A DNA stretch of 64,000 nt from a virus (IMGVR_UViG_3300015177_000008:32001-96000), one strand, 5' to 3'; positions 2,816 to 45,383 are shown, numbered from the stretch's first letter. Made by a program: numbers and translations. Notes: generated from the letters alone by a model not told the origin.

Positions 2816-3018
2816 GATTAATTCCTTATCGTAAATAACAAATTGTTTTCTTGTTGGTGTTAATTATCGTTGTACGAATAAGGCGTCAAAGTGGAAAGTT
2901 GCGGTAGCCGGACGGGAACAGGTGGGTTTGTCGGTTGCCTGGAGGTAAGAGGTTGGTGTTTTTAGCCTGCGGGGAACAGGATGGTCATTTAAGGCCACCA
3001 CTGCTGGTGGCCTTGTTT

Positions 3019-3951
3019 TCAACTGGAATAAGAATAATCTGTATTGATGAGTAAAGGCGCATCATCCACTAATCCTGACAGAAACCAGCGAGCAGTCCCG
3101 TAAAGTTCAAGGGCGTCAAGATAGCCTTCATGCAGTGCACCAACCCCAAACACATCATTATCAGCCATAGCTACCGCATCTACGGCCAGATACTCTATGA
3201 GTTCTTCCATGCTTTTTATATTTATATCGTCTAAATTCTCCAGTTTGTTCTCAATCTCATTGAAAGGGATATCCGGCATCGAATGCACTATGATTTTTGG
3301 CACATCATTCTCATTATTTACCTCCACAATAACAATTCCATACTCTGTAAAAAGAGAACTAAAGAATCTATTAAACTCTAAATTAACAAAAGATGCCGAA
3401 CCATTTAAACGCTCAACATATGGGGAACGAAAAGCTGAATGTAAATTATTTTTTCTACTTTCCTTGCCATATTCTATAATCAACTCTTTATTTTTGATCT
3501 TCTCGAGTATTCCACCTAGCTCCTCTACAATTAAAGCGCCAGTGTTTTCTCTTTCTTTTGATACTATAGTTGAAAGACTGATCAAGGCTTCTGTTATACT
3601 GTTATTAGAAACGATCAGATGAAATAGCTCCAGCATAGCCAATCGACCACTATCAGTGAACGTAACAAAGTTTATTGCATCTATTTCATTTTTAATCGCA
3701 AGAAACTCACATTTATTTTTGATGTTTTCCCGAATTGACATCTCCACACGCTGTCTTATTCTCAACACCTGCTTAAAGTAAGTATTTTCAAAACATTCGA
3801 CAGAAAATGTCTTCTTACCATCATTCACAATAGCCAATCTGTATTCATATTCAAGACCATTAAGTTCAAGGCAATCACTGTCATATTGGGACCCATCTTT
3901 AACTGAAAACAATTCACTAATGTCAATTTGTCCCAAAAATACTGGTTTCAT
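3019..3951 (-). CDS. Hypothetical protein (310 aa), AT-rich
   Basis: ORF with SD gagga upstream of ATG; no recognisable motifs. Confidence 0.55.
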   Translation of the reverse strand: MKPVFLGQIDISELFSVKDGSQYDSDCLELNGLEYEYRLAIVNDGKKTFSVECFENTYFKQVLRIRQRVEMSIRENIKNKCEFLAIKNEIDAINFVTFTDSGRLAMLELFHLIVSNNSITEALISLSTIVSKERENTGALIVEELGGILEKIKNKELIIEYGKESRKNNLHSAFRSPYVERLNGSASFVNLEFNRFFSSLFTEYGIVIVEVNNENDVPKIIVHSMPDIPFNEIENKLENLDDINIKSMEELIEYLAVDAVAMADNDVFGVGALHEGYLDALELYGTARWFLSGLVDDAPLLINTDYSYSS

Positions 3952-4088
3952 TTTTAATTCCTCGTTTGTTTTCGATGTGATAATTATCGCTGAATGAAAT
4001 AGGCTAAAAAGAAGATTTGTAAGGCAACTATCTGGAAGTAAGGCAAAGGGTGGTCATTTAAGGCCACCAGCATTGGTGACCTTATTCT

Positions 4089-4370
4089 TCAGTGGAGCAG
4101 ACCGATGTCGATGGTATCCCCTGAATCATCCACACGGATCATCAGCATGGCAAAGGCGTTTAGTGGATAGCTTGCGTGCCATTCAGGGAAGCGGTCATCT
4201 CGCATGAAGTCGGCAATGTCATAAACGCATCCCTCAAAGTGGAAGAATCGCGTGCTTACCTGCTCGTCATAATCCACATGATCCATTTCTTGCTGTTCTT
4301 TTTCCGGCAAATCCAGCCATGATTCAAGGAATACATTTTGTGCTTTAGTGGTAATGGTGAAGTCAGTCAT
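4089..4370 (-). CDS. Hypothetical protein (93 aa)
   Basis: ORF with SD ggaggtg; follows a 46-codon ORF in operon-like arrangement. Confidence 0.5.
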   Translation of the reverse strand: MTDFTITTKAQNVFLESWLDLPEKEQQEMDHVDYDEQVSTRFFHFEGCVYDIADFMRDDRFPEWHASYPLNAFAMLMIRVDDSGDTIDIGLLH

Positions 4371-4374
4371 TCTT

Positions 4375-4515
4375 CACCTCCATTTTGATAGAAAATCATC
4401 CATCTCAAGATAGCCATTAAGCTCCTGCTCTGACATGATGATGTTTTCCATGCTTCTGATAGCCTCAAGTAACGACTCCCGATCTGACGAAGCGACAGTA
4501 ACAATGTATTCCATA
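4375..4515 (-). CDS. Small ORF (46 aa), hypothetical
   Basis: ATG at 4515 (MEYIVTVASSDRES...) downstream of motif copies at 4533-4596; below ORF-track length cutoff. Confidence 0.3.
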
Positions 4516-4641
4516 TTATTTCACCACCTAATAAACACGTTGTTTTCTTGTTGTTGTAATTATCGCGGTGTAGATAAGGCAGAAAACAAATTGTTATCGG
4601 GTATAAGAAAATGGCGCGGTTTACGCGCCATTCAAAGAGGA

Positions 4642-5037
4642 TTAAGCGAATACGCTTTCAGGGATTAAGGTGTCAGCAGGAATGCCGGATGTAATGCGCA
4701 GACCATACTGACCAATCCAGGTGGTGCTGGTGTTCAGGCTGGAGGTGAATACGGAATTAACCATATTCATCATGGTTTCAAACACCTCTTCATCAACCTG
4801 GCGGAAGTAGTTCTCGATTTTCAGCAGCAGCGGGTCAGTTGCATCGAGAATGGACTGGTATTGAGTCGCGTACTCGCCGCCGGAGGCATCACCTTTACGC
4901 ACGATCGTACTGGCCTGTACTTCGGCACCAGTTTCGGTGTTGTACGTAACAACGGTGATTTTTGCCACATTCTTACCTTCGGCGGTTTCAGAGGCATAGT
5001 AAACATCAACTGTCAGTTTTTCGCGTTTAACGGTCAT
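4642..5037 (-). CDS. Hypothetical protein (131 aa)
   Basis: ORF; upstream palindrome gtaagtatgtacttac (5081-5096) and TATAAAATA box. Confidence 0.55.
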   Translation of the reverse strand: MTVKREKLTVDVYYASETAEGKNVAKITVVTYNTETGAEVQASTIVRKGDASGGEYATQYQSILDATDPLLLKIENYFRQVDEEVFETMMNMVNSVFTSSLNTSTTWIGQYGLRITSGIPADTLIPESVFA

Positions 5038-5101
5038 TTCACTCTCCGTAGTGTCTTGATTATTTTTCTATTTTATAGCCGTAAGTATGTACTTACAATA
5101 C

Positions 5102-5129
5102 AAAAAAGCCCCGTAAGGATGGCGGGGCT
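5102..5129 (-). terminator. Rho-independent terminator (minus strand)
   Basis: On the minus strand agccccgccatccttacggggct followed by TTTTTT; lies just downstream of the 5164-5475 gene. Confidence 0.55.
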
Positions 5130-5163
5130 GTCGTACTGTCGACTAATTACCACTTGCACATTA

Positions 5164-5475
5164 TCAGGCTATTGCCATCACTGATGCTCTCTGAATTTCT
5201 TGCTGGGCCACGCGGTTAACTTCCATCAAAGCCAGTTCGAGCTGATGTTCCGGCCACATTCTTTGAAATGCCACCCAGCCTTTTCCACGCTGGCGACGAA
5301 CATTCATTACATAACGAGTAAAGGTGTTTTTATCGAAAGACACCGCTGTTTCACGGAACAGACGAATAGAGGTCCCATTGGCAACGATGTCCAGCAAAGT
5401 TAATTGAGCAACCAGTGCAGGCTTCTCTTTTCTCTTCTGGTCTTTGTCCAGACCAAGAACCAATGATTTTTTCAT
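5164..5475 (-). CDS. Hypothetical protein (103 aa)
   Basis: ORF 5164-5505 trimmed to ATG 5475 (MKKSLV); motif AAACAACTTGTTT 12 nt upstream. Confidence 0.5.
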   Translation of the reverse strand: MKKSLVLGLDKDQKRKEKPALVAQLTLLDIVANGTSIRLFRETAVSFDKNTFTRYVMNVRRQRGKGWVAFQRMWPEHQLELALMEVNRVAQQEIQRASVMAIA

Positions 5476-5628
5476 CACAACTCCGTAAACAACTTGTTTT
5501 CTCAATGGCGTAAATAATACCAGTAAGAAAACGGCTACAAAGCATATTGATCAGGCGCATGAGCGATATGCAGGTTCTTCCCTGCGGCTATAGAGAAATT
5601 AAGCCAGCAATGCTGGCTTTGGTTGGGG

Positions 5629-5958
5629 TTACTCGAATACTTCAAGAAACTCCTGAACGTCCCAATGCTGGACGAGGTGAAGATAGACCTTAGAAATCAC
5701 GTCATTTTCGCTATCGCATGTGAAGTAGTACTTCTGGCTGCGGTTGTATGTGTCCACACAAAATTCGCTCATATCCATAAAGTCAGCATCTTCACCCATG
5801 TCGCAAATCATCAAAGCAGGTGCGTCATCACGAGTCATCAGCTCCAGCACCCATCTTGAATTGATCAGAGTGGAAGACCAACCTTCTAACTCATAAAACT
5901 GATCAAACTCTTTTTGAGTTAATTTCTTGATTTGGTTGATGTCGATATTTGTAAACAT
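5629..5958 (-). CDS. Hypothetical acidic protein (109 aa)
   Basis: ORF 5629-6024 trimmed to ATG 5958 (MFTNID); motif AAACATGTTGTTT 13 nt upstream. Confidence 0.5.
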   Translation of the reverse strand: MFTNIDINQIKKLTQKEFDQFYELEGWSSTLINSRWVLELMTRDDAPALMICDMGEDADFMDMSEFCVDTYNRSQKYYFTCDSENDVISKVYLHLVQHWDVQEFLEVFE

Positions 5959-6096
5959 AAAGCAATCCTTAAACATGTTGTTTTCTGAATTGCGTAAACA
6001 ATACCAGTAAGAAAACGGCCACAAAGTATATCGTTACGGTGTTGCGCTGCCCGGAGGTTAATAGCGACAAAAGCCACCGTGCTGGTGGCCTCACTC

Positions 6097-6315
6097 TTAA
6101 TCTTCGTCGCCCGGGAACTCGCTGTGTACCGCGTCCACCAGCTCCCGCTTTTCATCTTCACTCAGCAGGTGCCAGATATCCTTCCCCTTGGGCGGTTCCC
6201 CTTCTGCCGGGACGAACGACCACAACTTGCGGTACAACTCCGGCCCCACTGCATCCAGACACTCAGCCAGGGAATCCACGCCCCACACCTCAACCGTCAC
6301 AGGCATCTTAATCAT
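6097..6315 (-). CDS. Hypothetical acidic protein (72 aa)
   Basis: ORF starting atgattaag with SD gaggatg; motif copy at 6348-6365. Confidence 0.45.
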   Translation of the reverse strand: MIKMPVTVEVWGVDSLAECLDAVGPELYRKLWSFVPAEGEPPKGKDIWHLLSEDEKRELVDAVHSEFPGDED

Positions 6316-6693
6316 CTCTTCATCCTCACTTCGTTTATATAACGTCTAAACATGTTGTTTACTTGTTGGTGTTATTATCGCAATAAGACAAAGGCGGAAA
6401 AGGATTTTATGTCGGGAAAGCCAGGCGGGTAGTGAGTATCCGGGAACGACACGGGAACCAGTATTTACGATATTCTGCTCTACGCGCGCCGCAGGGCTGG
6501 TGGGCAGAATTTTCTTCTCCCCGAAAACCTACTGAAATCGATTGTGACCCGCTGACTGTCTGGCACAATTACGCTGTAGCTGGGCATTCAGAGGGAATCC
6601 AGCGGTAAGCAAGTCCGCCTACGTGAGCGCCTCTCTTCTTCCCGCACATTACAGGTGGGTAGCCGCAACTCTCCCTCTCGCTATACCGGTACG

Positions 6694-6831
6694 CCGCCGT
6701 TCCTGAACCGGCATCGAGCCTTTTCCCGAAATCCACACAGGCAACTCAACCGTTTCCCTGAAAATCCCCAGCCGTTCCCCGAAGGCAACCCAGCCGTTTT
6801 TGTAGCGGGATGCAGCCTTTTCCCTGTATGG
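6694..6831. repeat. Iteron-like array: six direct repeats of GCCGTT(T/C)CC(C/T)GAA with about 22-bp periodicity
   Basis: Copies start at about 6694, 6718, 6749, 6771, 6793, 6815; inverted CGGGAA copies at 6413-6460. Confidence 0.5.
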
Positions 6832-6959
6832 ACCGAAGGCTGACCGTAGGGGTGTTACGGGGGATAAAATCAGGAGTTGAATAAATACGAAAAAGGAGGC
6901 GACACCCCTCCTTCCCTCCCCACTTATACATACCTGGCTTCTTCGCTATACATGTTGTG

Positions 6960-7500
6960 TTTTATCTGTCTCAACCTCTCTATAGGCGTTAATGCTCACT
7001 CCTTCCAGAATGTTCTATACGGCGACTATTTCTGTTGGTGAATTGGGTGTGTTGTTTTCTCTGTCGGTGTATGTGGTTTCGTTCGTTTTGCGGTGGTTCT
7101 TCTATGGGGTGTTCTCGTCGTTTTGGTGATTGTTCTTCTCCGTGTATGGAGTAATGGCAGGTGGGCGATTCCTTTCGTTGTTGTGTTTGAGTTGTTTGTC
7201 TGGAGTGTGTGAAAGGCTTTTGTAGTTATTCGTGTATTGGGTAATGGCGTTTCCCGTGATTGTTCTGTTTCGTGTCTTTTGGGATTGAGAGAAACCTTGC
7301 GGTTACAGGCTTCGTTGGGGTTTCAGTGATTCTGGTGTTTCTTCGCTGTTTGGGGAATGGCGTGTCGTGGGTATCGCGCGTATGAATGTTTTCGGATTGC
7401 CTGTGAAAGTTAGGTTGGTTGTCCGGTAGCCTGGGAAGAAGAGGTGGGTCTTTTCGGTAGCCTGCCATAAAGAGGTTGGTTGTTTTTGGTAATGGCATAT
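6960..7500. repeat. Strand-skewed (GT-rich on plus) noncoding region with degenerate tandem repeats
   Basis: Recurring core G(T/C)TGT(A/T)T(G/T)GG(A/G)(G/T)AATGGC at about 7141, 7231, 7344, 7485; only low-complexity ORFs. Confidence 0.45.
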
Positions 7501-7897
7501 GTGTTATTTAGTTGTTTTGTTATACCTGAAAATAAGTTGTTTATATGGTTGTGTAACGCAACGGGAGCGATTTTGAGCGTGTGTTTTTGTTGGTAGTGTG
7601 TTTGGTCGTCTGCGGTGAAAATTGGACGCTGTGGCGCTGTCTGCTGCGTAGAATTACGGGTATAAGCAGTGATGTGTGAAAACGTCAATTTTTTAGACCA
7701 AATCGGGTGAAAGCGTTGATGTTTCGTTGATCTGTTATTCAGTTGTTTTCTTGATTGTATAAACAACCATAACTTATTGATATTTAAGGATATGATTGCG
7801 GGTATGGAAGGGGAGTAGTGGCGATCAACGGATTCTTATAGAAAAGAATCAAATTGTGACCGCCATTATCAACTGATTGATTTGTTTACTTGTGTAG

Positions 7898-8296
7898 TCA
7901 GTTCTCGAAATGAATAGGGTCAACGTAATGCCGCTCACCGCTTTTACCATTACACAGCACTGTAACTTTCGCCTTTTCACTCCAGGCTGAGTATAGAAAG
8001 TTCCCATCAGGTTGAACATGGTAACGAGAGAAGTAAACATCGCCGACTGAGGCGTCGAACATGTTCCTATCTTTTTCACTTTGGGCAAGCGAGATGGATA
8101 TCACCGAATTCCCATTTGGGGAAACGATTTTAAATTTATTCCCTATATCCATAACAATATTGTAACCAGGTAATTGCTTGTGTGTTTCCGGATCTATTTT
8201 CATGCATCGTGGGTACACGATAGTGTTAGGCTCTTCAACTGGCGTGGCATTAGCAGAAAGCACAAAAAATATTAGTGCCAATGGTGCATATTTCAT
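7898..8296 (-). CDS. Secreted protein (signal peptide), function unknown
   Basis: 132-aa ORF; N-terminus MKYAPLALIFFVLSANA; SD gaggg. Confidence 0.5.
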   Translation of the reverse strand: MKYAPLALIFFVLSANATPVEEPNTIVYPRCMKIDPETHKQLPGYNIVMDIGNKFKIVSPNGNSVISISLAQSEKDRNMFDASVGDVYFSRYHVQPDGNFLYSAWSEKAKVTVLCNGKSGERHYVDPIHFEN

Positions 8297-8408
8297 TTAT
8301 CCCTCACAATTTCCAATTTTCCAGACCATCTTCTATTTCAGCGTCAGGGTGGAATTGTACCGCATCAAATCCTACATCGAGCACCTTTCGAATGTTCTTG
8401 ATGGTTTG

Positions 8409-8597
8409 CTATGTGACACCGTAATCACGCAGCTTTTCTTCCCTCCCCTGACTCCCCCATACTCCGTTTCTGTACCCAATTGAGTCCGAGATCGTATGGT
8501 GCTCGAAACAGATATTTGGTAGACACTCAGAGTCATGCTGTGTAACGAGGGTAGGGCTACTAACTGTCGTCTTATACAATTTGGTGAGTTTCAGCAT
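8409..8597 (-). CDS. Small hypothetical protein (62 aa), translationally coupled to upstream gene
   Basis: ATG overlaps stop of 8591-8839 gene (ATGCTGA arrangement). Confidence 0.4.
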   Translation of the reverse strand: MLKLTKLYKTTVSSPTLVTQHDSECLPNICFEHHTISDSIGYRNGVWGSQGREEKLRDYGVT

Positions 8598-8839
8598 TTT
8601 ACCACCCCGTTCGGAAACAACTCATTCGCCGTAGTTGATATAACCTCCCAATTAACGCCGACATCAGCGTTATGGCATTGTCTGATTTTTTGCATCACCT
8701 GTACGCATTGTTCATCAGTGAGATCTGTCCTTACTTCAGCAATATCTTCTTTGTGCCACATAACCATGAGTAAGGGTTCGTCTTCTGGATAGTTTTTCAG
8801 TTTCTCGATGATTTCTTTTGCTGTTCCAAACATCTTCAT
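8591..8839 (-). CDS. Hypothetical protein (82 aa)
   Basis: ORF with aggagATGaagATG start context; motif copies at 8847-8864 and 8893-8910. Confidence 0.5.
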   Translation of the reverse strand: MKMFGTAKEIIEKLKNYPEDEPLLMVMWHKEDIAEVRTDLTDEQCVQVMQKIRQCHNADVGVNWEVISTTANELFPNGVVKC

Positions 8840-8846
8840 CTCCTAA

Positions 8847-8910
8847 ATAATTTGTTTTCTTATGTGGCTTATTATCTCAATCAACAAAAGGTAGAAAACA
8901 AATTGTTTTA
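8847..8910. promoter_or_regulatory. Inverted pair of AAACAA..TTGTTT motifs at the left backbone/chromosome junction
   Basis: aataatttgttttcttat (8847-8864) and agaaaacaaattgtttta (8893-8910) in opposite orientation, upstream of gene 8591-8839. Confidence 0.45.
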
Positions 8911-8992
8911 GGGCTTGTGTAAATTAGGAGGGATTGTGTCTATATGAAAATGCCCAGCGTGTTGCCGGGCATTGTGAAGAATGGTTGTTTAG

Positions 8993-30518: not shown

Positions 30519-30519
30519 A

Positions 30520-31623: not shown

Positions 31624-31706
31624 AAAAACCTCACAAAGATAAGTAATCACTTATTCATTAAGTGAGTTTACATTTATTGAGGGAACAAGGCCAGATAGAT
31701 AAAAAA

Positions 31707-32740: not shown

Positions 32741-33883
32741 TTACAGGTCTGCAAACTGGCTTAGAGAAGCCTTATCCACGGTAGAATCGATCTGACCTAC
32801 CAGATATGTGCTTTGCTCTGCCTCTTGTGGTGCAATTTGCAGTGTGTCGGTTAACAACCACTTGTTCATCCAGACCAGCGGATCTGTGGTAACTTCTGGA
32901 AATAAAGCCTTCAGGCCAAGACGATTCATAGCCAGATTGGTTCGGTATTTTACATAGGTCTTCAGAATATCCGCGTTTAAACCAATCATCGAACCGTCTT
33001 TGAAGAGATAGTCTGCCCAGTTCATTTCTTGTTCGGCGACTGATTTCATGGTGTCGTAAATGACGCTTTCTTCATCAGCAGCAATCTCTTTCCACAATAA
33101 ACCTTCGCGACCGGTACGCATGAAGCGGATCATGCGTTCAGTTCCTTCGCAATGCAGAGCTTCATCACGAGCAATAAAGCGCATAATTTTGGTGTTACCC
33201 TCAAGCAACTTCCGTTCGCCAAAGGCAAACGTACATGCAAAACTTACATAGAAACGGATCGCCTCAAGCGCATTAATGGACACCAACGTGCGGAAAAGCT
33301 GACGGTGCAAAGGGTATGGCTCCCAGCCATATTCATTTACGTACAGACGTTCAAACTCTTTCTCACCTAACGACTGGCGCTCGCAGGTCATCCCATAAAG
33401 CCTGTCATATTCAGCAGAGATACTGATCGCTCGGTTGATGATTTCTTCATCCGTAACAATACCGTCAAAAACAATGCTCGGATCGTCCACCATGCCACGA
33501 ATAATGTGGGTGTAGCTGCGGCTATGGATAGTCTCAGAGAAAGACCATGTTTCAACCCACGTTTCCAGTTCAGGAATAGAGATAAGCGGCAGCAGCGTTG
33601 CATTTGGGCTACGTCCCTGAACTGAGTCGAGTAACGTTTGATAACGGAGATTGCTCAGAAAAATGTGACGTTCGTGGTCCCGCAGCTTCGTGTTGAAGTC
33701 GATACGATCGCTCGAAATATCAACTTCTTCCGGCCGCCAGAAGAAAGACAATTGACGTTCAATCAACTTTTCAAAATCACGGTATTTTTGCTGATCGTAA
33801 CGTGCCACGTTGACAGATTGTCCGAGGAACATAGGCTCTTTGGTTGCATCATTAGCACCCAAACGGAACGTTGAATATGACAT
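32741..33883 (-). CDS. nrdB: Ribonucleotide reductase class Ia beta subunit (NrdB)
   Basis: MSYSTFRL... with [48 protein letters not shown]; strongly resembles E. coli NrdB; start ATG 33883. Confidence 0.93.
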
Positions 33884-33913: not shown

Positions 33914-33932
33914 AAACAAGTTGTTATCTTAT
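33914..33932 (-). promoter_or_regulatory. Family-1 motif upstream of nrdB, with adjacent TTGTTTAAACAA palindrome
   Basis: aaacaagttgttatcttat followed by tttgtttaaacaagg in the nrdA-nrdB intergenic region. Confidence 0.45.
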
Positions 33933-36303: not shown

Positions 36304-36320
36304 GTATCACCAAATAAAGA

Positions 36321-36342: not shown

Positions 36343-36349
36343 ATATTAA

Positions 36350-36369
36350 TAGATAAGCACTTACCTATC
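36350..36369. promoter_or_regulatory. Family-2 palindrome TAGATAAGCACTTACCTATC upstream of nrdA
   Basis: About 45 nt upstream of nrdA ATG; family recurs before other operon-leading genes. Confidence 0.5.
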
Positions 36370-36376
36370 AATGAGA

Positions 36377-36946: not shown

Positions 36947-36955
36947 ATAGTCTCC

Positions 36956-37699
36956 TTACCATGTTCCCCATATAGGGTTTTCCAATAATCTCGCCTCCAA
37001 CGAATTGGTTACTATTGCCGTTTGCAACGTTGGTTGGGGATAGTTTGCAAAGTCTGAATACTCATTTTCCTGCGTGACACGTTTATCTACGGCATGTTTA
37101 ACGCCACTTGCTATGAAATGACGCATGATGCCCAACAGCCTCCGACTGTCTGCACTATCGTTTGCTAAAACATGAGGGAGCTGAAGTTCGATTTCCACCA
37201 TTTCCCCATACTTACCAACAAACTGTAGTTTGTCCGCACTGTACTTTTTATCCCTCCTTTGGATAAGGAAACCAGTAAAAGCATCACCTGGCGATGCCAA
37301 ACTATCCACCCGCTTATTGGCAAGTCGAATAAGGTTCGTGAAAGCCATACAGTGATGCGCACCCATTCCCCCAAAGAACCCTTCGCTATTAATGTTAAGA
37401 TCTTCAGTTTCATGGGATGCAATAAACCCAGGCCCGACGTTGGGAAGATACCCCCCCTCAACAAAAGGATTAATCAGGATCGGCGCAATACATCCAGGTG
37501 GTAGTGATTTCAAACTTTGCATCAATGGTGTCTCGGATATTAGACCAAGCAACGCGGCGAATTGTACTCCGTCAATATTGTTGCTGCCCCACAGAATACG
37601 TGGAGCCGCACCATTGGAAGTATGCCCATTGATCAGTTTTATCGACTGCATCACTGCAAATACCTGCAAAAACTGCGAGCGGCTTAATTTAAACGACAT
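36956..37699 (-). CDS. Hypothetical protein (247 aa)
   Basis: ORF between resolvase and SbcC-like genes. Confidence 0.5.
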   Translation of the reverse strand: MSFKLSRSQFLQVFAVMQSIKLINGHTSNGAAPRILWGSNNIDGVQFAALLGLISETPLMQSLKSLPPGCIAPILINPFVEGGYLPNVGPGFIASHETEDLNINSEGFFGGMGAHHCMAFTNLIRLANKRVDSLASPGDAFTGFLIQRRDKKYSADKLQFVGKYGEMVEIELQLPHVLANDSADSRRLLGIMRHFIASGVKHAVDKRVTQENEYSDFANYPQPTLQTAIVTNSLEARLLENPIWGTW

Positions 37700-39605: not shown

Positions 39606-39834
39606 ATAACACCTCTGATACCGTGTGTTAGCTTTTGGCCTTCTTTCAATCTGAACTCCGTATGCGCCGGGAAGGATCTGCGCCTCAATACGCCTTTTCT
39701 TGTTAACCTTCCAAGATAAAACGCTACGGGATTTCCTTGTGGGGGGTAGGGCTTGTGAAACATCACCGTCTGGCCTCGTTCAAGTCTTTTCATCGTGATG
39801 GCAAAGTCTCGAAAGCTCCCATAACGACTTTGCT

Positions 39835-40920
39835 TCACACAGCCTCCGAACTCTCCGCTTCGGTGAGGATTTCCTGACACAAAATATCCAATTTGCTCAG
39901 ATCAAATCCGCCGTCAGTATCGTGGACAATCTTGCAATAAGCAGATACCGACTCTCCCAGGCTATCGATTTTGCTGGTTTCAGTTGTGCTGGCTGTCCCT
40001 TCCATCATTGATGACTTACGGATGAAGTTGCACACGACACCTTTTGCACCCATTGTTTTGAGGATGTTCTGGTACTTAATGCCTTCTTCATCGTTCTCAA
40101 TTACGGCGCGGAAACGCACGTAGTTGCCGCGAATTTGGTCATCAGCAACATCATCTTCCAGGTTAATGAATTTAGGCGCACTGGTTTCGTAGTGACTGAA
40201 ACTGCCGTCCGGGTTTACGATCATGTAGCCAGCCAGAGATCCAACATCTCCCCAATTTTGATGAGTCAGTGCACCGACACTGATAACTCCAGGAATGACC
40301 TCTTTGTGGTTGTGGTAATGCCCACTAAGCACGAGACGAAAGCCGATATCCTTTAACTCCTGCGCATCGATACCGACGTCAGGCATTGTTGGAATGGCTT
40401 TGTTAATGGATGTATGGATAACAACGTCATGGTTATCACCTTCTACGCTCTTACGTAATGCTTTCAGATCGCTGATAAGCTCCGCATGATTGTTACGCCA
40501 GCTAATCAGGTGGACAGTCACATCACCAATTTTTATTGAGTGTGGGCGCTTGCCACATACGATTACCACGCCGATAGAACTCAGCGATGCTGCTGCGTTG
40601 GCGCTATATACTGAATCGTTGGTTTCAAGATCGTGATTACCGGCCAGCATTACTACTGTCAGATCAAGCTCGTTGATAATCCACTTGTACGTTTCAGTTA
40701 CGTAATGCAAAACAGAAGGGGACACAGTTCCTCGGACGTGAAATGTATCACCGGCAACCAACATGTACTTACAACCGGCCTTCTTCATGGCGATGGCTGC
40801 TTCTTTCGTTGCTTCCAACTGTATTTCAAGTCTGGAGTTAAGCCCCTCAGCGTTCGTCGTGGAGAACGCATCCCATTTGTGGTAGTGGCAGTCAGAAATG
40901 ACGCCGTATGGCAAAGTCAT
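39835..40920 (-). CDS. SbcD/Mre11-like nuclease (T4 gp47-like)
   Basis: Calcineurin-like phosphoesterase motifs SDCHYH, GDTFH, GNHD, GHYH. Confidence 0.9.
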   Translation of the reverse strand: MTLPYGVISDCHYHKWDAFSTTNAEGLNSRLEIQLEATKEAAIAMKKAGCKYMLVAGDTFHVRGTVSPSVLHYVTETYKWIINELDLTVVMLAGNHDLETNDSVYSANAAASLSSIGVVIVCGKRPHSIKIGDVTVHLISWRNNHAELISDLKALRKSVEGDNHDVVIHTSINKAIPTMPDVGIDAQELKDIGFRLVLSGHYHNHKEVIPGVISVGALTHQNWGDVGSLAGYMIVNPDGSFSHYETSAPKFINLEDDVADDQIRGNYVRFRAVIENDEEGIKYQNILKTMGAKGVVCNFIRKSSMMEGTASTTETSKIDSLGESVSAYCKIVHDTDGGFDLSKLDILCQEILTEAESSEAV

Positions 40921-41033
40921 GTATTTTTCCTTTGTGGTTATTTTGATACAAATTCTAAGAGCAATGAGGAGGTAAACAACTATGCATAACGGTATGTTAG
41001 GAATGAAACGAGTGCCTTAATATACAAAATTTA

Positions 41034-41053
41034 TAAGTAAGTATATACCTATT
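41034..41053. promoter_or_regulatory. Family-2 palindrome upstream of the sbcD-sbcC operon
   Basis: ataagtaagtatatacctat within the AT-rich leader. Confidence 0.4.
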
Positions 41054-41174
41054 TATTTTGGCGTGAAGTTGCTTGTCTATATGGCTAAAAATAAGACAAC
41101 GTCACTGTAGAACGAAATGAGAGCGATTTTGAGGAGGCGTAGATTCTATCTACGCCAATATGCGATCTGGAGGG

Positions 41175-41819
41175 TTACAGCGCGTCAGTGGTCTTTTTAC
41201 GCGCTGCGTTTATGCTTATGACGCCAGCTTTTGGACGTGGGTCAACAAGGTTAAGTTCTTCTTCACTGTGGTATTCGAGGTCGAACTCACGTTTTACATG
41301 TCTGATGTAGATTGCGGTGAGCAGGCTATCTTTGGTCAGAAAGTGTCCGTAGGATTTGCGGATCACTTCTTCTACCTTCTCGATTTTCTCACCACCCATA
41401 CAGAGATGATTAAACCGGCTGTGTTTCCGCAACATTTCGTCTACTGGGCCTGAGTAAACCTTGTCTACTTTCCCAAAACGGATGATTTTTCCTGTGTCTG
41501 CGGATACGAGGCAAATCAGCTTGTCTGGTGATAAACGATCTCGCCACGTCACACCTGAACGGAGTGTGTTGAAGTAGGGGGCATCCAATCCGATGATCGG
41601 TTTACGAAATGCGAGTAATGGAACGTACCTGATGCAACTGTTTAAATGAAAATTCACACCAGCCTTATCAAGTTTAATTCTGGTTTCGTAGATCGGGCAC
41701 TTCGCCGCTATACCGCAGATGTCACAAAGCAACTTCTGCTTATTCAGGTTGGAATTTGATTCGATAGTGTAGGAGCCGTCTTCAAGACGACGAACCCAGC
41801 GCGTGCGTTTTAGATCCAT
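41175..41819 (-). CDS. Hypothetical protein (214 aa) with Cys cluster
   Basis: ORF-track ORF; CDICGIAAKCP motif. Confidence 0.5.
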   Translation of the reverse strand: MDLKRTRWVRRLEDGSYTIESNSNLNKQKLLCDICGIAAKCPIYETRIKLDKAGVNFHLNSCIRYVPLLAFRKPIIGLDAPYFNTLRSGVTWRDRLSPDKLICLVSADTGKIIRFGKVDKVYSGPVDEMLRKHSRFNHLCMGGEKIEKVEEVIRKSYGHFLTKDSLLTAIYIRHVKREFDLEYHSEEELNLVDPRPKAGVISINAARKKTTDAL

Positions 41820-41897
41820 ATGTCATTTTTCTGTGATTGTTAGCCGAGGCAACGATAACCCACCAGGTGCGCCGAAGGTAGTAAATGCCTGTTTTAA

Positions 41898-41978
41898 TTA
41901 TTCACATATCCACAGGATAGATCCTAATAAAGAGATCCATAGATAGATCCTTGTATAGATCAAATAAGATCCCCGATC
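41898..41978. promoter_or_regulatory. Origin-like region: two DnaA-box-like 9-mers plus six GATC sites in 59 bp
   Basis: TTATTCACA (41898-41906) and ATATCCACA (41906-41914); GATC at 41920, 41934, 41946, 41958, 41968, 41975 within AGATCC-type heptamers. Confidence 0.6.
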
Positions 41979-42018
41979 GCTGTAAGCCGCGCCACGACTG
42001 GTCTGAAGCCATGTTCAT

Positions 42019-42120
42019 GTATGCTGTCAGCGGTAATTGATAGTCTGTCAGCGGTTCACCGTATGCTGCCAACTGTTTTTGGTATTCTGTCAGCGGCAAA
42101 TCAAGTATGCTGTCAGCGGT
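42019..42120 (+). repeat. Upstream iteron array (5 copies of GTATGCTGTCAGCGGT, 22-bp spacing)
   Basis: Copies at 42019, 42041, 42061, 42083, 42105 immediately upstream of repA. Confidence 0.75.
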
Positions 42121-42140
42121 TGAATGACAAAGGTGTCCAC

Positions 42141-43235
42141 ATGTCCACAAAAAATAAAAAAGGTAAAAATAACAAAGAAGTAGAAGATAATCTCGACAAC
42201 TTTGAAGAAGGTTCCCTTGAATTGTACACAGGGGAACTTGTCCCTAATAGCAACAATACAGTCCAACCAATTGCGTTGATGCGGCTGGGATTGTTCGTGC
42301 CCACGCTCAAGGGGACAAAATACAGCAAGCGTAACAAGCCAAATGAGATCGATGCTTCAAAGGAGCTTGTTCAGCTCGAAGTAGCCCGTTCTGAAGGCTA
42401 TTCCGATATCAAGATAACCGGTCCTCGTCTCGACATGGATCATGATTTCAAAACGTGGGTGGGCGTTGTGCGTTCGCTGGCAGAATACGGCGAACCTAAC
42501 GGTCGTGTCGAGTTAAGCATCACGAAATTTGCGAAGTTTTGTGGCTATCCATCGTCACAGATCCGCAAAACACTCCGCGACCGGCTTACAAACAGTCTTT
42601 TGAAGATCATGCGTACAACTCTGTCTTTCCAGAGAACATATGAAGAAAAGAACGTCGACGGCTCTAACAAGATCTCGCTTCTGATGGTGCACCTCATCAA
42701 TAGCGTGGACTACAACGAGCAGAAAGATACGGTGGTGTTCTATGCAGAACCGAAGCTGGCCGAACTATATCGCTTTGACCATAAGGTTCTTTTGCAGTTA
42801 AAGGTTATCAATAAGCTACCACGCAAAGAAACAGCACAGGCTCTGTACACCTTCATCGAAAGTCTTCCAACCAAGCCTGCGCCGGTGTCGCTTGCTCGAT
42901 TGCGTGCGCGACTCAATTTGAGTAGCAGGAATGTCAGCTCGCAGAATCAGACTATACGCAACGGCTTAAAAGCTCTCCAAGATTTGGGCTATCTCGAATA
43001 CAGCGAGATTAAGCGAGGGCGGTCGATCTATATCCAGATTCACAGCCGTAATCCAAAACTTAAAGTCGCACCGCCAAAACCTGAAGACATCGAACCCAAA
43101 AAAACAGATGAGAAAGCCGGGGAAATTGATGCTAAACAGAACATTATCAACAAGATAACTGAGCTTTCGCAGAATTTGACGCCTGAAAATATCAAGATGA
43201 TTGAGATCCTTTCCAATAGTCTCAAACTGCTTTGA
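42141..43235 (+). CDS. repA: Iteron-type plasmid replication initiator (RepA-like), 364 aa
   Basis: ORF flanked on both sides by arrays of the same iteron; start at ATG 42141 with SD aaaggtg; basic Lys-rich N- and C-termini. Confidence 0.8.
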   Translation: MSTKNKKGKNNKEVEDNLDNFEEGSLELYTGELVPNSNNTVQPIALMRLGLFVPTLKGTKYSKRNKPNEIDASKELVQLEVARSEGYSDIKITGPRLDMDHDFKTWVGVVRSLAEYGEPNGRVELSITKFAKFCGYPSSQIRKTLRDRLTNSLLKIMRTTLSFQRTYEEKNVDGSNKISLLMVHLINSVDYNEQKDTVVFYAEPKLAELYRFDHKVLLQLKVINKLPRKETAQALYTFIESLPTKPAPVSLARLRARLNLSSRNVSSQNQTIRNGLKALQDLGYLEYSEIKRGRSIYIQIHSRNPKLKVAPPKPEDIEPKKTDEKAGEIDAKQNIINKITELSQNLTPENIKMIEILSNSLKLL

Positions 43236-43766
43236 TATGCTGTCAGCGGTGAAATGTATGCTATCAGCGGCTATTTTTCTGAAAAGTATGCTGTGAACGG
43301 TTAAAGATATGCTACCAGCGGTATAGTGAGATGAACGTATGCTGTGAGCGGTAAATCATCTATCACCACTCAATGCTCTGTCATACCTCCCCAGTGGTTA
43401 CTAACCTCGAAGAGTGCATTCCATATAGGTTTGCGCTCACTAACATTCTATTGCTATTGCGCTGATTGCTTGTAGTGAAAGGCATTTATTGCCTGCTGCT
43501 CCCTGATAGAACGTATGCTGTCAGCGGTGTTTTATTGAGGAATTTTTGTTTGGATATGCTATCAGCGGTAATTAATGGTATATGTCAGACCTTCGTATGC
43601 TGCCAGCGGTAATTTTGTTCTGGTTATACCCATACCGGTACACATTATTCATGCAATGTCTTAAGTATGCTGTCAGCGGTAAAAAATCGAGTAAAGTATG
43701 CTGTGAGCGGTGAGATAGACTCTCGATATGCTATCAGCGGTAGTTGATTGTGTATGCTGTCAGCGG
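43234..43766 (+). repeat. Downstream iteron array (about 12 copies in two groups), incA-like
   Basis: Copies at 43234, 43256, 43286, 43306, 43336, 43512, 43553, 43594, 43664, 43694, 43724, 43749; first overlaps the repA stop. Confidence 0.8.
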
Positions 43767-43814
43767 TGACGACTATGAAATATGACTGCGGAACGTGCCG
43801 CAGTCAGTTTGCAT

Positions 43815-44027
43815 TTAGTGTATTTTCTTTAACAGACCCCAAAGTGTTCCGGCTTTTGTAGTCAGTTTTCCTGTTTCTGGATCGTACATACGCCATTCAC
43901 GCCGCTGGTGGACGATATACCCATCTTCACGTTCCAGACGCTCAAGAATGCCAGGTTGCTTGAAACCCTTAGCACGCCAGTAGCCGCTTGTTTTCTCGAT
44001 TTCCAGACCTGCCAGTGTTAATGCCAT
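43815..44027 (-). CDS. Hypothetical protein (70 aa)
   Basis: ATG overlaps stop of the upstream gene (TAATG). Confidence 0.45.
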   Translation of the reverse strand: MALTLAGLEIEKTSGYWRAKGFKQPGILERLEREDGYIVHQRREWRMYDPETGKLTTKAGTLWGLLKKIH

Positions 44028-44362
44028 TATTCAACCTCCTTGCAGTCATCGAAAAGGTAGCTTTGCTGAGAAGCGTGAACGCCATAGAAGCCCTTGTATT
44101 TGTTGTATACGAAGTGGTCTTCTCCGACGCCGGTTAATTTGCCATTACGGTTTGTGAGATATGGGGATGACAACACTCGATCGTCACGCACAACATAGAA
44201 CTGGTCGCCGCTGTCTACGACCATCGCTCCATATGGTGCTTTTATGACGTCGGTAAGAGCGCCATTCTTAACGTCGGCTACAGACATTTCACACTGATAA
44301 ACAGTGGTGTCGGCCACAACGATCGAAGAAAGGAACAACAGCGCGAATGGGATGGCCTTCAT
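44027..44362 (-). CDS. Secreted protein (signal peptide), function unknown
   Basis: MKAIPFALLFLSSIVVA signal-like N-terminus. Confidence 0.5.
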   Translation of the reverse strand: MKAIPFALLFLSSIVVADTTVYQCEMSVADVKNGALTDVIKAPYGAMVVDSGDQFYVVRDDRVLSSPYLTNRNGKLTGVGEDHFVYNKYKGFYGVHASQQSYLFDDCKEVE

Positions 44363-44538
44363 GCTGCCACCTCTTTGATTACATCAAATGCTGAATTAAA
44401 TACGAGCACGATAGCCAAAGCGTTTATGACTACGTCGTTCACCGGGGAAAAGACTTTACGAATGACACCGGTGAAAATGCAGTCGATGACAAAAGCTATT
44501 GAAACGATGAGTAACAAGTATTCAATAAAAATCTTCAT
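44359..44538 (-). CDS. Small membrane protein (59 aa), hypothetical
   Basis: Not in ORF track; stop overlaps next ATG (ATGA); two hydrophobic segments. Confidence 0.35.
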   Translation of the reverse strand: MKIFIEYLLLIVSIAFVIDCIFTGVIRKVFSPVNDVVINALAIVLVFNSAFDVIKEVAA

Positions 44539-44577
44539 GATAGGTAGATACTAACTTATATAAATTTTACTGTAAAC

Positions 44578-44853
44578 TCACTCAAAAGTGCTGATGCTTA
44601 AAATACGCTCAAGATGTGCGGCATCTTCATCACTGATTTGTTGAGTCTCTTCTACGTACCAACAGTTGCCGTTATGCCAACAAACACCATCATCATCAAC
44701 CATCACTGAATCAGCGTCATGACCTGTATATTCAACGAGAATACGCTGGATCAGCGCGTCAGTTTCTTCGTCGTTAAGGCCATCGGCTTTGACCATAAAA
44801 ACCGGAAACACGTCATAGACAGTGCTGGTAACGATTCGAACTAAAACTCTCAT
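44578..44853 (-). CDS. Hypothetical acidic protein (91 aa)
   Basis: ggaaaaacacATG start context. Confidence 0.45.
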   Translation of the reverse strand: MRVLVRIVTSTVYDVFPVFMVKADGLNDEETDALIQRILVEYTGHDADSVMVDDDGVCWHNGNCWYVEETQQISDEDAAHLERILSISTFE

Positions 44854-44908
44854 GTGTTTTTCCTTTTGTGGTTAGTGTTTACTTATTTTGTTAGTTATGA
44901 ATAGGCGA

Positions 44909-45334
44909 TCAATCTTCTTGTTTAGGGAAAAACTGTTCAATAACTCTGTCAACGGCTGTGTCTATATGGAGTAGATGCCACACAACCATATCTTTGCTTC
45001 CCATGCCTTGTGTGAATATCACGTCATACTTACGCCATGCGCAGTGGAACCAATATGCTGAGTCATCAATTGGTAAATCCTCTCCCGCCTCTTTGAAGTA
45101 TTTCAGCAGCATTGCCTGCTCTGCCGTTGGCGTTGGGCCTATTTCCTGAGCGTACATACGGATGAATCGCTGCCAGTCTGTCTCGTCGGGAGTTGGATCT
45201 GGTGGATTCATTTCGGCGATAGCTTTTCGCAGCTGATGCGCCCAATCAGGTTCAGGAAAGCCTTTTGCTACTTCATCATCAATAACATCCAGAGCCACGT
45301 TTGCGGCATCGTAGAGTTTCTTAATAGCTGTCAT
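44909..45334 (-). CDS. Hypothetical protein (141 aa)
   Basis: Motif aaacaagttgttttcttaa at 45351-45369. Confidence 0.5.
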   Translation of the reverse strand: MTAIKKLYDAANVALDVIDDEVAKGFPEPDWAHQLRKAIAEMNPPDPTPDETDWQRFIRMYAQEIGPTPTAEQAMLLKYFKEAGEDLPIDDSAYWFHCAWRKYDVIFTQGMGSKDMVVWHLLHIDTAVDRVIEQFFPKQED

Positions 45335-45383
45335 GTTTTCTTAACCCTTTAAACAAGTTGTTTTCTTAATAGGATAATTGCGA

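What the first reader, a model, noticed from the sequence alone, without database searches (positions are those of the whole stretch)
2837..45369. Family-1 palindrome AAACAA(N1-3)TTGTTT immediately upstream of many small backbone genes
A 13-bp palindrome within a conserved 19-mer (AAACAAGTTGTTTTCTTAT on the plus strand) sits 12-45 nt upstream of start codons of minus-strand genes at 2837, 4533, 5487, 5971, 6348, 8847, 22269, 22997, 33914 (nrdB) and 45351, with extra inverted copies at 4581 and 8893. It is distinct from family 2 and mostly marks small genes of unknown function. It could be a second operator, a promoter element for an element-encoded factor, or a translational operator in the 5' UTR.
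Basis: seen in the sequence. Interest (0 to 1): 0.6.

Follow-up and report, generated by a model that had tools for sequence, protein, structure and literature searches.

The report
Regulon motif at phage-plasmid transcript starts
A conserved, oriented 16-19 base signal (AGAAAACAAnTTGTTT) sits between the likely promoter and the start codon of about 12 genes in this SSU5-like phage-plasmid, and about 20 per related genome, so it is probably the docking site of one element-encoded repressor that controls them together; it appears undescribed, and the protein that binds it is not identified.

Summary
All 10 listed sites match the 19-mer with 3 or fewer mismatches, all on one strand (0.03 expected by chance). 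Each lies 11-32 nt upstream of a minus-strand start codon.

The window is an SSU5-like phage-plasmid, 96% identical to E. coli phage Cyrano. The same motif marks about 20 genes in each of Cyrano, SSU5, Klebsiella pJN2-26 and the deep-branching Klebsiella plasmid KpPF25 p2. Acinetobacter and Aeromonas relatives lack it.

In 7 of 10 window sites a -10-like box ends 7-8 nt upstream. The motif would then start at about +1 and the 13-bp palindrome would span about +8 to +20. Two promoters carry a second, inverted copy 51 bp upstream, over the -35 region.

The element is asymmetric and always oriented with the gene: AGA flanks one side in 52 of 76 core sites and never both.

- **Best reading (0.45):** a DNA operator for an element-encoded repressor. 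The leading candidate is the ribbon-helix-helix-like protein encoded downstream of parA.
- **Main rival (0.3):** an RNA leader operator for the element's FljA-family protein, which I find to be a tandem Hfq-like fold.

The parts
2836..2854 (-). Family-1 site (ACAAGAAAACAATTTGTTA). Start codon at 2815 (ORF 2333-2815, 160 aa). -10-like GATAAT at 2863-2868 and TTGACG 15 nt further upstream.
4533..4551 (-). Family-1 site. Start codon at 4514 (46-aa ORF 4374-4514). -10-like GATAAT at 4559-4564.
4581..4599 (+). Upstream inverted copy (AGAAAACAAATTGTTATCG). Its palindrome centre is 51 bp from that of site 4533, and it overlaps the -35 region of the same promoter.
5487..5505 (-). Family-1 site with a perfect palindrome. 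Start codon at 5475 (ORF 5164-5475, 103 aa). -10-like TATTAT at 5514-5519.
5971..5989 (-). Family-1 site. Start codon at 5958 (ORF 5629-5958, 109 aa). -10-like TATTGT at 5998-6003.
6348..6366 (-). Family-1 site. Start codon at 6315 (ORF 6097-6315, 72 aa). -10-like GATAAT at 6374-6379.
7530..7548 (-). Weak family-1 site (AAACAACTTATTT core) about 28 nt upstream of ORF 7226-7498. No convincing -10.
8845..8863 (-). Family-1 site directly abutting the Shine-Dalgarno AGGAG. Start codon at 8833 or 8839 (ORF ends at 8591). -10-like GATAAT at 8871-8876.
8893..8911 (+). Upstream inverted copy (AGAAAACAAATTGTTTTAG), centre 51 bp from site 8845, overlapping the -35 region.
22269..22287 (-). Family-1 site with an exact 19-mer. 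Start codon at 22250 (ORF 21681-22250, 189 aa). -10-like CACAAT at 22295-22300. The orthologous upstream regions of four genomes conserve only the -10, the motif and the ribosome-binding site.
22998..23016 (-). Family-1 site. Start codon at 22973 (TciA/TerB-like protein, 141 aa).
33914..33932 (-). Family-1 site between nrdA and nrdB. nrdB starts at 33883. It follows a terminator-like hairpin and has no convincing -10, so it is an intercistronic type of site.
45351..45369 (-). Family-1 site just downstream of a terminator-like hairpin with a T-run. Start codon at 45334 (ORF 44909-45334, 141 aa).
60853..60871 (-). Weaker family-1 site (CTAGTAAATAATTTGTTTT) upstream of cobT (start 60833). -10-like TACATT at 60878-60883. 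It is a strong site in SSU5.
1..194 (+). 3' end of the FljA-family gene (last 63 codons: the second Sm/Hfq-like domain). This is the candidate trans-acting RNA-binding factor of the rival explanation. The gene is cut by the window start.

Best explanation
The motif is a cis-acting operator shared by a regulon of the phage-plasmid.

In most cases it lies in the first 20 or so transcribed base pairs of a sigma70-type promoter, with the palindrome at about +8 to +20. An element-encoded repressor bound there, and in some promoters also at a second copy centred near -38, blocks initiation or promoter escape. This keeps about 20 transcription units silent, or in the case of parA throttled, in the plasmid (carrier) state.

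My leading candidate for the binding protein is the small ribbon-helix-helix-like protein encoded immediately downstream of parA. It corresponds to CYRAN_29 in phage Cyrano and lies outside this window. It would act like the omega and ParG proteins of type Ib partition systems, which repress their own operon and, in omega's case, other operons.

Shown here: the motif, its placement, its orientation, its conservation and its lineage distribution. Inferred: the transcription start sites, that binding occurs on DNA, and the identity of the binder.
For: **Statistics and conservation**
- 10 of 10 sites lie on one strand against 0.03 expected.
- The same element occurs at about 20 gene fronts in each of Cyrano, SSU5, pJN2-26 and KpPF25 p2, although their proteins are only 35-90% identical.
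- In orthologous upstream regions only the -10, the motif and the ribosome-binding site are conserved.

**Placement**
- The aggregate of 48 sites shows a gATAAT box whose final T is the most conserved upstream base.
- In the window, 7 of 10 sites have a -10-like hexamer (A at position 2, T at position 6) ending 7-8 nt before the 19-mer.
- The motif-to-(-10) distance is fixed, while the motif-to-AUG distance varies from 11 to 32 nt and carries indels between genomes.

**Symmetry**
- The core is a 6-N-6 palindrome with matching information content in both halves.
- Variant bases are not compensated, and the RNA hairpin is worth only -0.7 kcal/mol, no better than shuffles. This is what DNA recognition by a dimer predicts.

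**Second copies**
- Inverted copies sit 51 bp upstream over the -35, outside the transcript of that promoter. They are conserved in the window, Cyrano, SSU5, pJN2-26 and KpPF25.

**Published lysogen RNA-seq of Cyrano**
- Most motif-bearing genes are at background even where the -10 and -35 look good. The parA operon, which also carries the motif, is expressed (PMC9928086, S1 Table).

**Candidate binder**
- The gene after parA has the pattern basic tail / KSRTMS(L/I)EDE strand / helix / helix (FTRSDVIRAAI). The strand is invariant across lineages that are 49-100% identical.
- It gives a weak NCBIfam hit to an archaeal cell-cycle-regulator family, aCcr1, which I take to be ribbon-helix-helix proteins.
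- It is expressed in the lysogen at 89 FPKM and is detectable only in enteric phage-plasmids, like the motif.
- The family-1 motif is the only palindrome conserved upstream of parA in all four genomes.
- That ribbon-helix-helix partition proteins repress the par promoter rests on established knowledge of ParG and omega.
Against: - The element is intrinsically asymmetric and always oriented with the gene. AGA flanks exactly one side in 52 of 76 core sites and never both. A simple homodimer on a palindrome does not predict this.
- Sites in front of the helicase gene, nrdB and terS lie between co-directional genes with no convincing -10.
- The strict sigma70 scan tool did not call the promoters, because the -35 boxes are weak or the spacing is 15-16 nt.
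- No transcription start data exist.
- The AlphaFold model of the ribbon-helix-helix candidate is of low confidence (pLDDT 64), and such a fold cannot form as a monomer. There is no PDB sequence relative.
- Type Ib partition proteins usually bind arrays of repeats, not single dispersed sites.
- The element also encodes an RNA-binding repressor family with the same lineage distribution (see the first rival).
Confidence: 0.45

Rival explanations
1. The motif works in the RNA. It is a leader operator (5'-AGAAAACAAnUUGUUUAAG-3') just upstream of the Shine-Dalgarno sequence. It is bound by the element's FljA-family protein, which blocks translation and thereby exposes the mRNA to decay. This is what Salmonella FljA does to fliC mRNA, and it is analogous to T4 RegA acting on many early mRNAs.
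For: **The element has a suitable RNA-binding protein**
- It encodes a full-length Pfam PF03614 (FljA) protein, E = 1e-80.
- I find this family to be two tandem helix-plus-five-strand Sm domains (alignment; AlphaFold pLDDT 84, pTM 0.80).
- FljA acts post-transcriptionally on fliC (PMC2652032, citing Bonifield and Hughes 2003 and Yamamoto and Kutsukake 2006). The detail that purified FljA binds fliC mRNA is from my memory of the latter paper, which is not held.

**The gene is core to the element, so its target should be internal**
- It is present in all 12 complete SSU5-like phage genomes and in 831 plasmids. These include 341 from Klebsiella (non-flagellate, by my knowledge) and 62 from Yersinia, mostly Y. 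pestis pMT1-type.
- It is expressed in the lysogen, log2 about 7-8 in growing cells.

**The motif looks strand-specific**
- It is strictly sense-oriented and asymmetric.
- It lies 0-20 nt from the Shine-Dalgarno sequence and occurs at intercistronic positions.
- The leaders are otherwise unstructured.

**Shared distribution and sequence hints**
- Both the motif and the FljA-like gene are absent from the Acinetobacter and Aeromonas relatives.
- The Salmonella fliC leader contains CAAGUUGU 20-27 nt upstream of the AUG.
Against: - The perfect 6-N-6 self-complementarity has no explanation for single-stranded RNA recognition. A hairpin is marginal (-0.7 kcal/mol) and shows no compensatory changes.
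- The upstream inverted copies lie outside the mRNA of their promoter.
- Distance is fixed to the -10, not to the AUG.
- The fliC resemblance is statistically weak: PWM rank about 18-35 of 16,000 positions per locus, p about 0.1, and none in E. coli fliC.
- The FljA-like protein is only 36% identical between Cyrano and KpPF25, with a divergent first domain, yet the motif is unchanged.
- parA carries the motif but must be made in the lysogen.
Confidence: 0.3
2. No dedicated element-encoded binder exists. The sequence is either a conserved initial-transcribed or leader module recognised by a host factor conserved in Enterobacteriaceae (for example Hfq, IHF or ribosomal protein S1), or simply the conserved 5' end of a family of duplicated promoter modules that tunes promoter escape or translation efficiency.
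For: - The motif is invariant across hosts and across phage-plasmid lineages whose regulators have diverged strongly.
- It has an A-rich half and a U-rich half, which (from my knowledge of Hfq) resembles Hfq's A-rich (ARN-repeat) and U-tract preferences.
- The six small-gene promoters at 2.8-8.9 kb share extended upstream similarity suggestive of duplication.
Against: - The motif also occurs in unrelated upstream contexts (nrdB, cobT, parA, helicase, terS, site 45351) with about 2 bits per position. This exceeds what host A/U-rich preferences or shared ancestry explain.
- It fits the IHF consensus poorly (judged by eye against the consensus as I recall it; no tool test).
- No Rfam family matches.
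- Acinetobacter and Aeromonas relatives replace it rather than keep it.
Confidence: 0.12
3. This applies to the paired copies only. The upstream inverted copy and the main copy pair with each other in read-through transcripts from the preceding gene. The resulting long stem sequesters the Shine-Dalgarno sequence, so the gene is translated only from its own promoter.
For: - Predicted stems: -28.3 kcal/mol (z = -6.7) for SSU5 88316/88361, including the Shine-Dalgarno sequence.
- -17 to -18 kcal/mol (z about -2) for the two window pairs.
- In KpPF25 site 41971 both copies carry the same deviant flank, GAG.
Against: - It applies to at most a quarter of the sites.
- The complementarity follows automatically from two copies of one consensus.
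- The window pairs score only marginally better than shuffles.
- It is equally well explained as two DNA operators bracketing the promoter.
Confidence: 0.05

Closest known systems
Global operators of plasmid RK2 (KorB site OB, TTTAGC(G/C)GCTAAA; KorA site OA)
   Same: A 13-bp 6-N-6 palindrome repeated at many promoters of one replicon. Some copies are centred near -39 and others lie downstream of the start. It ties backbone genes into one regulon.
   Different: - The sequence is different.
- The present element is asymmetric (AGA flank) and oriented.
- The ParB homologue of this phage-plasmid is a canonical Spo0J-like protein but has zero reads in the lysogen, so it is unlikely to be the carrier-state repressor.
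- Binding was not tested.
Ribbon-helix-helix partition/regulator proteins of type Ib systems (omega of pSM19035, ParG of TP228)
   Same: - A small protein encoded right after a short ParA.
- It has a flexible basic N-terminal tail followed by a strand-helix-helix pattern.
- Half-sites sit 7 bp centre to centre, as for omega heptads.
- The proposed operator lies at the par promoter.
- Omega controls several operons.
   Different: - Omega and ParG bind arrays of 2-10 repeats at a few loci, not single sites at about 20 loci.
- The fold of the candidate here is not confidently modelled.
- There is no detectable sequence homology to solved ribbon-helix-helix proteins.
Phage-plasmid P1 C1 repressor operators
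   Same: In a phage-plasmid, an asymmetric, oriented operator of about 17 bp is scattered in front of many operons around the genome.
   Different: - The consensus is unrelated (ATTGCTCTAATAAATTT, from memory).
- In this element that role seems better filled by the second motif, GTAAGnnCTTAC, together with the cI-like HTH repressor.
Salmonella FljA acting on the fliC 5' UTR, and T4 RegA translational operators
   Same: A small repressor acts on mRNA leaders. An FljA-family gene is core to this element. The motif is sense-oriented and next to the Shine-Dalgarno sequence. RegA also controls many mRNAs through a short A/U-rich operator.
   Different: - FljA has one known target, and its site is not known to me.
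- The similarity to the fliC leader is weak.
- RegA sites overlap the AUG.
- No RegA homologue was found among the 30 proteins scanned against Pfam.
Lambda nut boxB-type leader hairpins
   Same: A sequence-conserved small inverted repeat with asymmetric flanks, in fixed orientation, in the leader just downstream of promoters.
   Different: The stem is A-U rich and barely stable (-0.7 kcal/mol). There is no N-like protein or boxA. It occurs at about 20 promoters rather than two.

Membership tests
DNA operator of a dimeric repressor | Two-fold sequence symmetry, with both half-sites conserved independently | tested here: met
   AAACAA-N-TTGTTT has 1.3-2.0 bits at all 12 positions. Variants are not compensated.
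DNA operator of a dimeric repressor | Overlap with core promoter or start site, at a fixed distance from the -10 | tested here: inconclusive
   7 of 10 window sites have a -10-like hexamer 7-8 nt upstream, and there is an aggregate gATAAT signal. However, nrdB, helicase and terS sites lack one, the strict scan tool calls none of the promoters, and no transcription start data exist.
DNA operator of a dimeric repressor | Orientation independence (symmetric flanks) | tested here: not met
   AGA is on one flank in 52 of 76 core sites and on both flanks in 0 of 76. The sites are always oriented with the gene, except for the -35 copies.
DNA operator of a dimeric repressor | Specific binding by a protein | not testable with these tools
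   Needs EMSA, footprinting or ChIP.
Structured RNA element (hairpin operator or riboswitch-like) | Stable fold with compensatory base changes | tested here: not met
   The motif alone folds at -0.7 kcal/mol (z = 0.1), and the leaders are no more stable than shuffles. Half-site variants such as TTATTT and ATGTTT are uncompensated. No Rfam match.
FljA-type leader operator | An FljA-family (PF03614) protein is encoded by the same element | tested here: met
   E = 1e-80 over the full length. Core in 12 of 12 phages and 831 plasmids.
FljA-type leader operator | Resemblance of the motif to the known FljA target (fliC leader) | tested here: inconclusive
   The Salmonella fliC leader shares CAAGUUGU, but the PWM score is -3.1 and the rank gives p of about 0.1. 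E. coli fliC does not match.
Sigma70 promoter hexamers (is the motif itself the promoter?) | Match to TTGACA or TATAAT at proper spacing inside the motif | tested here: not met
   There is no hexamer with A at position 2 and T at position 6 inside the motif. The -10-like box lies upstream of it.
Intrinsic terminator | G+C-rich stem followed by a T-run | tested here: not met
   The stem has one G-C pair. Terminator-like hairpins, where present, lie upstream of the motif.
LexA (SOS) box | CTGT-N8-ACAG | tested here: not met
   The sequence shows no CTGT or ACAG arms.
Type Ib partition ribbon-helix-helix operator (omega/ParG-like) | A ribbon-helix-helix protein encoded after parA, with its site at the par promoter | tested here: inconclusive
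   The sequence pattern and a weak aCcr1 hit are consistent. The model's secondary structure (disordered tail, helix 48-60, helix 70-84) is compatible, but pLDDT is 64. The motif is the only palindrome conserved upstream of parA.

The most novel reading that the evidence does not exclude
The FljA-family protein of SSU5-like phage-plasmids is a tandem Hfq-like RNA-binding protein. It recognises the AGAAAACAAnUUGUUU leader in about 20 element mRNAs and so imposes genome-wide post-transcriptional silencing in the carrier state.

Salmonella's flagellar phase-variation repressor FljA would then be a domesticated copy of this phage-plasmid regulator. Lysogeny of a very widespread plasmid family (pHCM2 of S. 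Typhi, pMT1 of Y. pestis, and hundreds of Klebsiella and E. coli plasmids) would depend partly on translational rather than transcriptional repression.
Probability: 0.27. Interest if true: 0.85.

Novelty: new member of a known kind. Interest (0 to 1): 0.55.

Why it matters
SSU5-like phage-plasmids are among the commonest large non-conjugative plasmids of clinical Enterobacteriaceae. More than 800 records in PLSDB carry them, including Y. pestis pMT1-type and S. Typhi pHCM2-type plasmids. Their gene regulation is essentially unstudied: I found no paper in the held library that describes their operators.

This work gives a concrete two-motif map:
- **Family 1** lies at transcript starts and is specific to the enteric lineage.
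- **Family 2** lies over the -10 and is shared with the Acinetobacter and Aeromonas relatives.

It also provides named candidate regulators, making the carrier-versus-lytic switch directly testable.

As a by-product, it shows that the FljA flagellin-repressor family has a tandem Hfq/Sm fold. That bears on how flagellar phase variation works.

Tried and rejected
- **fliC-leader similarity.** I fetched 105 fliC upstream regions. The PWM match in Salmonella is not significant and is absent in E. coli. I kept it only as a lead.
- **RNA hairpin.** It is marginal and shows no covariation.
- **ParB/KorB-like binder.** The ParB is canonical, but it and the whole ParB-ABC cluster, including the 88-aa putative winged-helix protein CYRAN_123, are silent in the lysogen. 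They are unlikely to be carrier-state repressors.
- **cI-like HTH repressor (window 61397-61783) as the binder.**
  - Its own upstream region carries the family-2 palindrome, not family 1.
  - Homologues occur in Acinetobacter (tblastn) and, as an annotated HTH gene next to cobT that aligns at 27% identity, in Aeromonas. Both of those elements lack family 1.
  - SSU5 lacks the gene yet keeps family 1.
- **RegA or another known regulator.** None was found among the 30 proteins scanned against Pfam.
- **Phyletic profiling.** Many genes are enteric-only, so this does not single out one regulator.
- **Strict sigma70 scan tool.** It did not call the promoters.
[quoted passage not shown] 2006) could not be read: the first two are not held and the third I did not look up. 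What I say about in vitro RNA binding is therefore from memory.
- **Fold search for the ribbon-helix-helix candidate.** I did not run it, because the model confidence was too low.

Full report
**1. What the window is**

Megablast of window 20000-26000 finds 94-97% identity over its full length to Escherichia phages Cyrano and CMS-2020a and to PhiR41_1. It finds about 80% identity to Salmonella phage SSU5 and to Klebsiella phage-plasmids. The window is therefore about 60% of an SSU5-like phage-plasmid. It carries replication, recombination and nucleotide-metabolism genes, repA with iterons, a cI-like repressor, an integrase, and many small genes. I fetched full annotated genomes of Cyrano, SSU5, Klebsiella pJN2-26, a deep-branching Klebsiella plasmid (KpPF25 p2) and two distant relatives from Acinetobacter and Aeromonas.

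**2.

- The 19-mer matches at the 10 stated places with 3 or fewer mismatches, all on the + strand. Shuffles give 0.03 expected.
- Read in the orientation of the minus-strand genes, it is ATAAGAAAACAACTTGTTT.
- Each site is followed after 11-32 nt by a start codon with a Shine-Dalgarno sequence.
- The spacer in the palindrome is always one base.
- The two extra inverted copies are confirmed.
- There are weaker additional sites upstream of cobT (60853-60871) and of ORF 7226-7498.

**3. It is a conserved, genome-wide signal**

A weight matrix built from the window sites finds about 20 strong sites in each of Cyrano, SSU5, pJN2-26 and KpPF25 p2. These sites again lie in the sense orientation just upstream of genes. 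Besides small genes of unknown function, they precede parA, the replicative helicase, cobT, nrdB, a TerB-like gene and the small terminase gene.

KpPF25 proteins are only 35-90% identical to Cyrano's, yet the motif is unchanged. In an alignment of one orthologous upstream region from four genomes, the invariant columns cluster in a -10-like box, the motif and the ribosome-binding site.

**4. Anatomy**

- **Upstream box.** Aligning 48 strong sites gives the consensus ...gATAAT-(about 4 nt)-CCAAtAAGAAAACAAnTTGTTTAAg. The last T of the box is the most conserved upstream base.
- **Window promoters.** In the window, 7 of 10 sites have a hexamer with A at position 2 and T at position 6 that ends 7-8 nt before the 19-mer. 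If this is the -10, transcription starts at the first A of the 19-mer and the palindrome occupies about +8 to +20. These starts are inferred, not shown.
- **Caveat on the promoters.** The -35 boxes are weak, and the strict scan tool does not call these promoters.
- **Distances.** The distance to the -10 is fixed, whereas the distance to the AUG varies and carries indels between genomes.
- **Intercistronic sites.** Sites before nrdB, the helicase gene and terS have no convincing -10. They lie between co-directional genes of operons that start with the other motif.
- **Second copies.** Two window promoters, and several in the relatives, have a second inverted copy whose centre is 51 bp upstream, over the -35.

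**5. Symmetric core, asymmetric whole**

Both hexamer halves carry 1.3-2.0 bits per position, and deviations are never compensated. The RNA hairpin would be worth -0.7 kcal/mol, no better than shuffled sequence. This favours recognition of duplex DNA.

However, when sites are chosen by the core alone, AGA flanks exactly one side in 52 of 76 cases and never both. That side is always 5' in the sense strand, or faces the promoter in the -35 copies. The functional unit is thus an oriented 16-19-mer, which a plain homodimer on a palindrome does not predict.

**6. Lineage distribution and a second motif**

The Acinetobacter (TerL 59% identical) and Aeromonas (53%) relatives have no family-1 sites. 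They instead have 12-25 copies of AGTAAnnnnTTACT. In the Acinetobacter plasmid these sit immediately upstream of, and overlap, a TATAAT box; I did not inspect the placement in Aeromonas.

The same palindrome, (A/G)GTAAGnnCTTAC(T/C) with flanks gATA...TATcat, occurs about 25-35 times in each enteric genome, mostly before structural and DNA-metabolism operons. One copy (61352-61365) lies 31 nt upstream of the cI-like HTH repressor gene (61397-61783).

That repressor has homologues in Acinetobacter (detected by tblastn) and, more weakly, in Aeromonas: an annotated HTH gene next to cobT that aligns at 27% identity and was not detected by tblastn. The recognition helix is conserved among enteric members. 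SSU5 lacks both the repressor and the integrase.

Family 1 is then a separate layer specific to the enteric lineage.

**7. Expression data from the literature**

In the published LF82 lysogen RNA-seq (PMC9928086, S1 Table):
- Most motif-bearing Cyrano genes are at background. CYRAN_1, 58, 85, 87, 101 and 110 are at about 5-9 FPKM, where 5 means no reads.
- The motif-bearing parA operon is expressed at 50-89 FPKM.
- Regulators expressed in the lysogen include the HTH repressor (96 FPKM), the protein after parA (89) and the FljA-like protein (18, rising to log2 7-8 in growing cells).
- ParB, the ParB-ABC cluster and the 88-aa putative winged-helix protein are silent.

**8. Candidate binders**

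*(a) The 119-aa protein encoded right after parA.*
- It has a conserved MGDLAKR tail, a basic stretch, an invariant KSRTMS(L/I)EDE segment and two helices (…FTRSDVIRAAI…). This is the ribbon-helix-helix pattern of ParG and omega.
- It gives a weak hit to the archaeal aCcr1 cell-cycle-regulator family, which I take to be ribbon-helix-helix proteins.
- The monomer model is of low confidence but has helices in the right places.
- The only palindrome conserved upstream of parA in all four genomes is family 1. Type Ib partition proteins are known to repress their own promoter, and omega also represses other operons.
- The half-site spacing of 7 bp suits adjacent ribbon-helix-helix dimers.

*(b) The FljA-family protein.*
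- It matches Pfam PF03614 at E = 1e-80. Its last 63 codons are at window 1-194.
- The alignment shows two repeats resembling the Hfq helix plus Sm1 motif. The model is confident (pLDDT 84, pTM 0.80).
- The family is described as a post-transcriptional repressor of fliC.
- Because the gene is core even in Klebsiella and Y. pestis plasmids, its target is probably within the element.
- Its resemblance to the fliC leader (shared CAAGUUGU) is not statistically convincing.

**9. Verdict**

The finding is real, non-random and conserved, and to my knowledge undescribed.

- **DNA operator (0.45).** I rank first a DNA operator at the start of about 20 transcription units. The reasons are the palindromic core without covariation, the fixed register to the -10, the conserved second copies over the -35, and the silence of good-looking promoters in the lysogen. 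The ribbon-helix-helix partition protein is the most plausible binder.
- **RNA leader operator for the tandem-Hfq-like FljA homologue (0.3).** This reading explains the strict orientation, the asymmetry, the proximity to the ribosome-binding site and the intercistronic sites. It does not explain the symmetry or the -35 copies.
- **Host-factor or promoter-module reading (0.12), and read-through stem for the paired copies (0.05).** These are less likely.

The two main readings make opposite predictions for transcriptional versus translational fusions and for DNA versus RNA binding assays. The question is directly testable.

Noticed in passing
window 18921-18934, 23892-23905, 31642-31655, 36352-36365, 41036-41049, 46496-46509, 58691-58704, 61352-61365 (and about 25-35 per related genome): A second dispersed palindrome, (A/G)GTAAGnnCTTAC(T/C), usually flanked gATA...TATcat so that its 3' arm runs into a -10-like box. 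It lies before structural and DNA-metabolism operons. The Acinetobacter and Aeromonas relatives share it as AGTAAnnnnTTACT. One copy sits 31 nt upstream of the cI-like HTH repressor gene.
   Followed up: partly
[not shown]
   Followed up: yes
window 42019-42122 and 43235-43769: Fourteen copies of an 18-mer (GTATGCTGTCAGCGGTAA, up to 3 mismatches), all in one orientation. They flank repA (42021-43235) and are presumably iterons of the plasmid origin.
   Followed up: partly
window 60887-60919: Inverted repeat CTGCGCGAA-N15-TTCGCGCAG just upstream of the cobT promoter. SSU5 has CTGTACGAACAG-N9-CTGTTCGTACAG at the same place, so both arms have changed together. Function unknown.
   Followed up: no
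window 52998-53416 (+): Full-length match to the Rfam cspA thermoregulator (RF01766, 186 bits). The element carries a cold-shock-protein gene together with its regulatory leader.
   Followed up: no
window 22250, 22973, 33883, 45334 and others: Many genes share an unusually uniform translation start context, AAGGAAAACACATG. AAAACACATG occurs 7 times in the window.
   Followed up: no
L005 (SSU5 42525-42761) compared with window 61397-62881: Phage SSU5 lacks the integrase and the cI-like repressor present in the window, Cyrano, pJN2-26 and KpPF25, yet it keeps both operator-like motif families. This would fit SSU5 being a repressor-less derivative.
   Followed up: partly
L239 24664-25329 (Acinetobacter pDETAB1); L243 21907-22224 and L242 47317-47601 (Aeromonas plasmid): The distant relatives carry regulators that the enteric elements lack. 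The Acinetobacter plasmid has a sigma70-family sigma factor. The Aeromonas plasmid has its own Hfq and an HU-like protein.
   Followed up: no
L002 40268-40822 (Cyrano CYRAN_43; near the end of the window region): In the published lysogen RNA-seq this 184-aa protein of unknown function is by far the most expressed gene of the element (about 7000 FPKM, roughly 700 times background).
   Followed up: no
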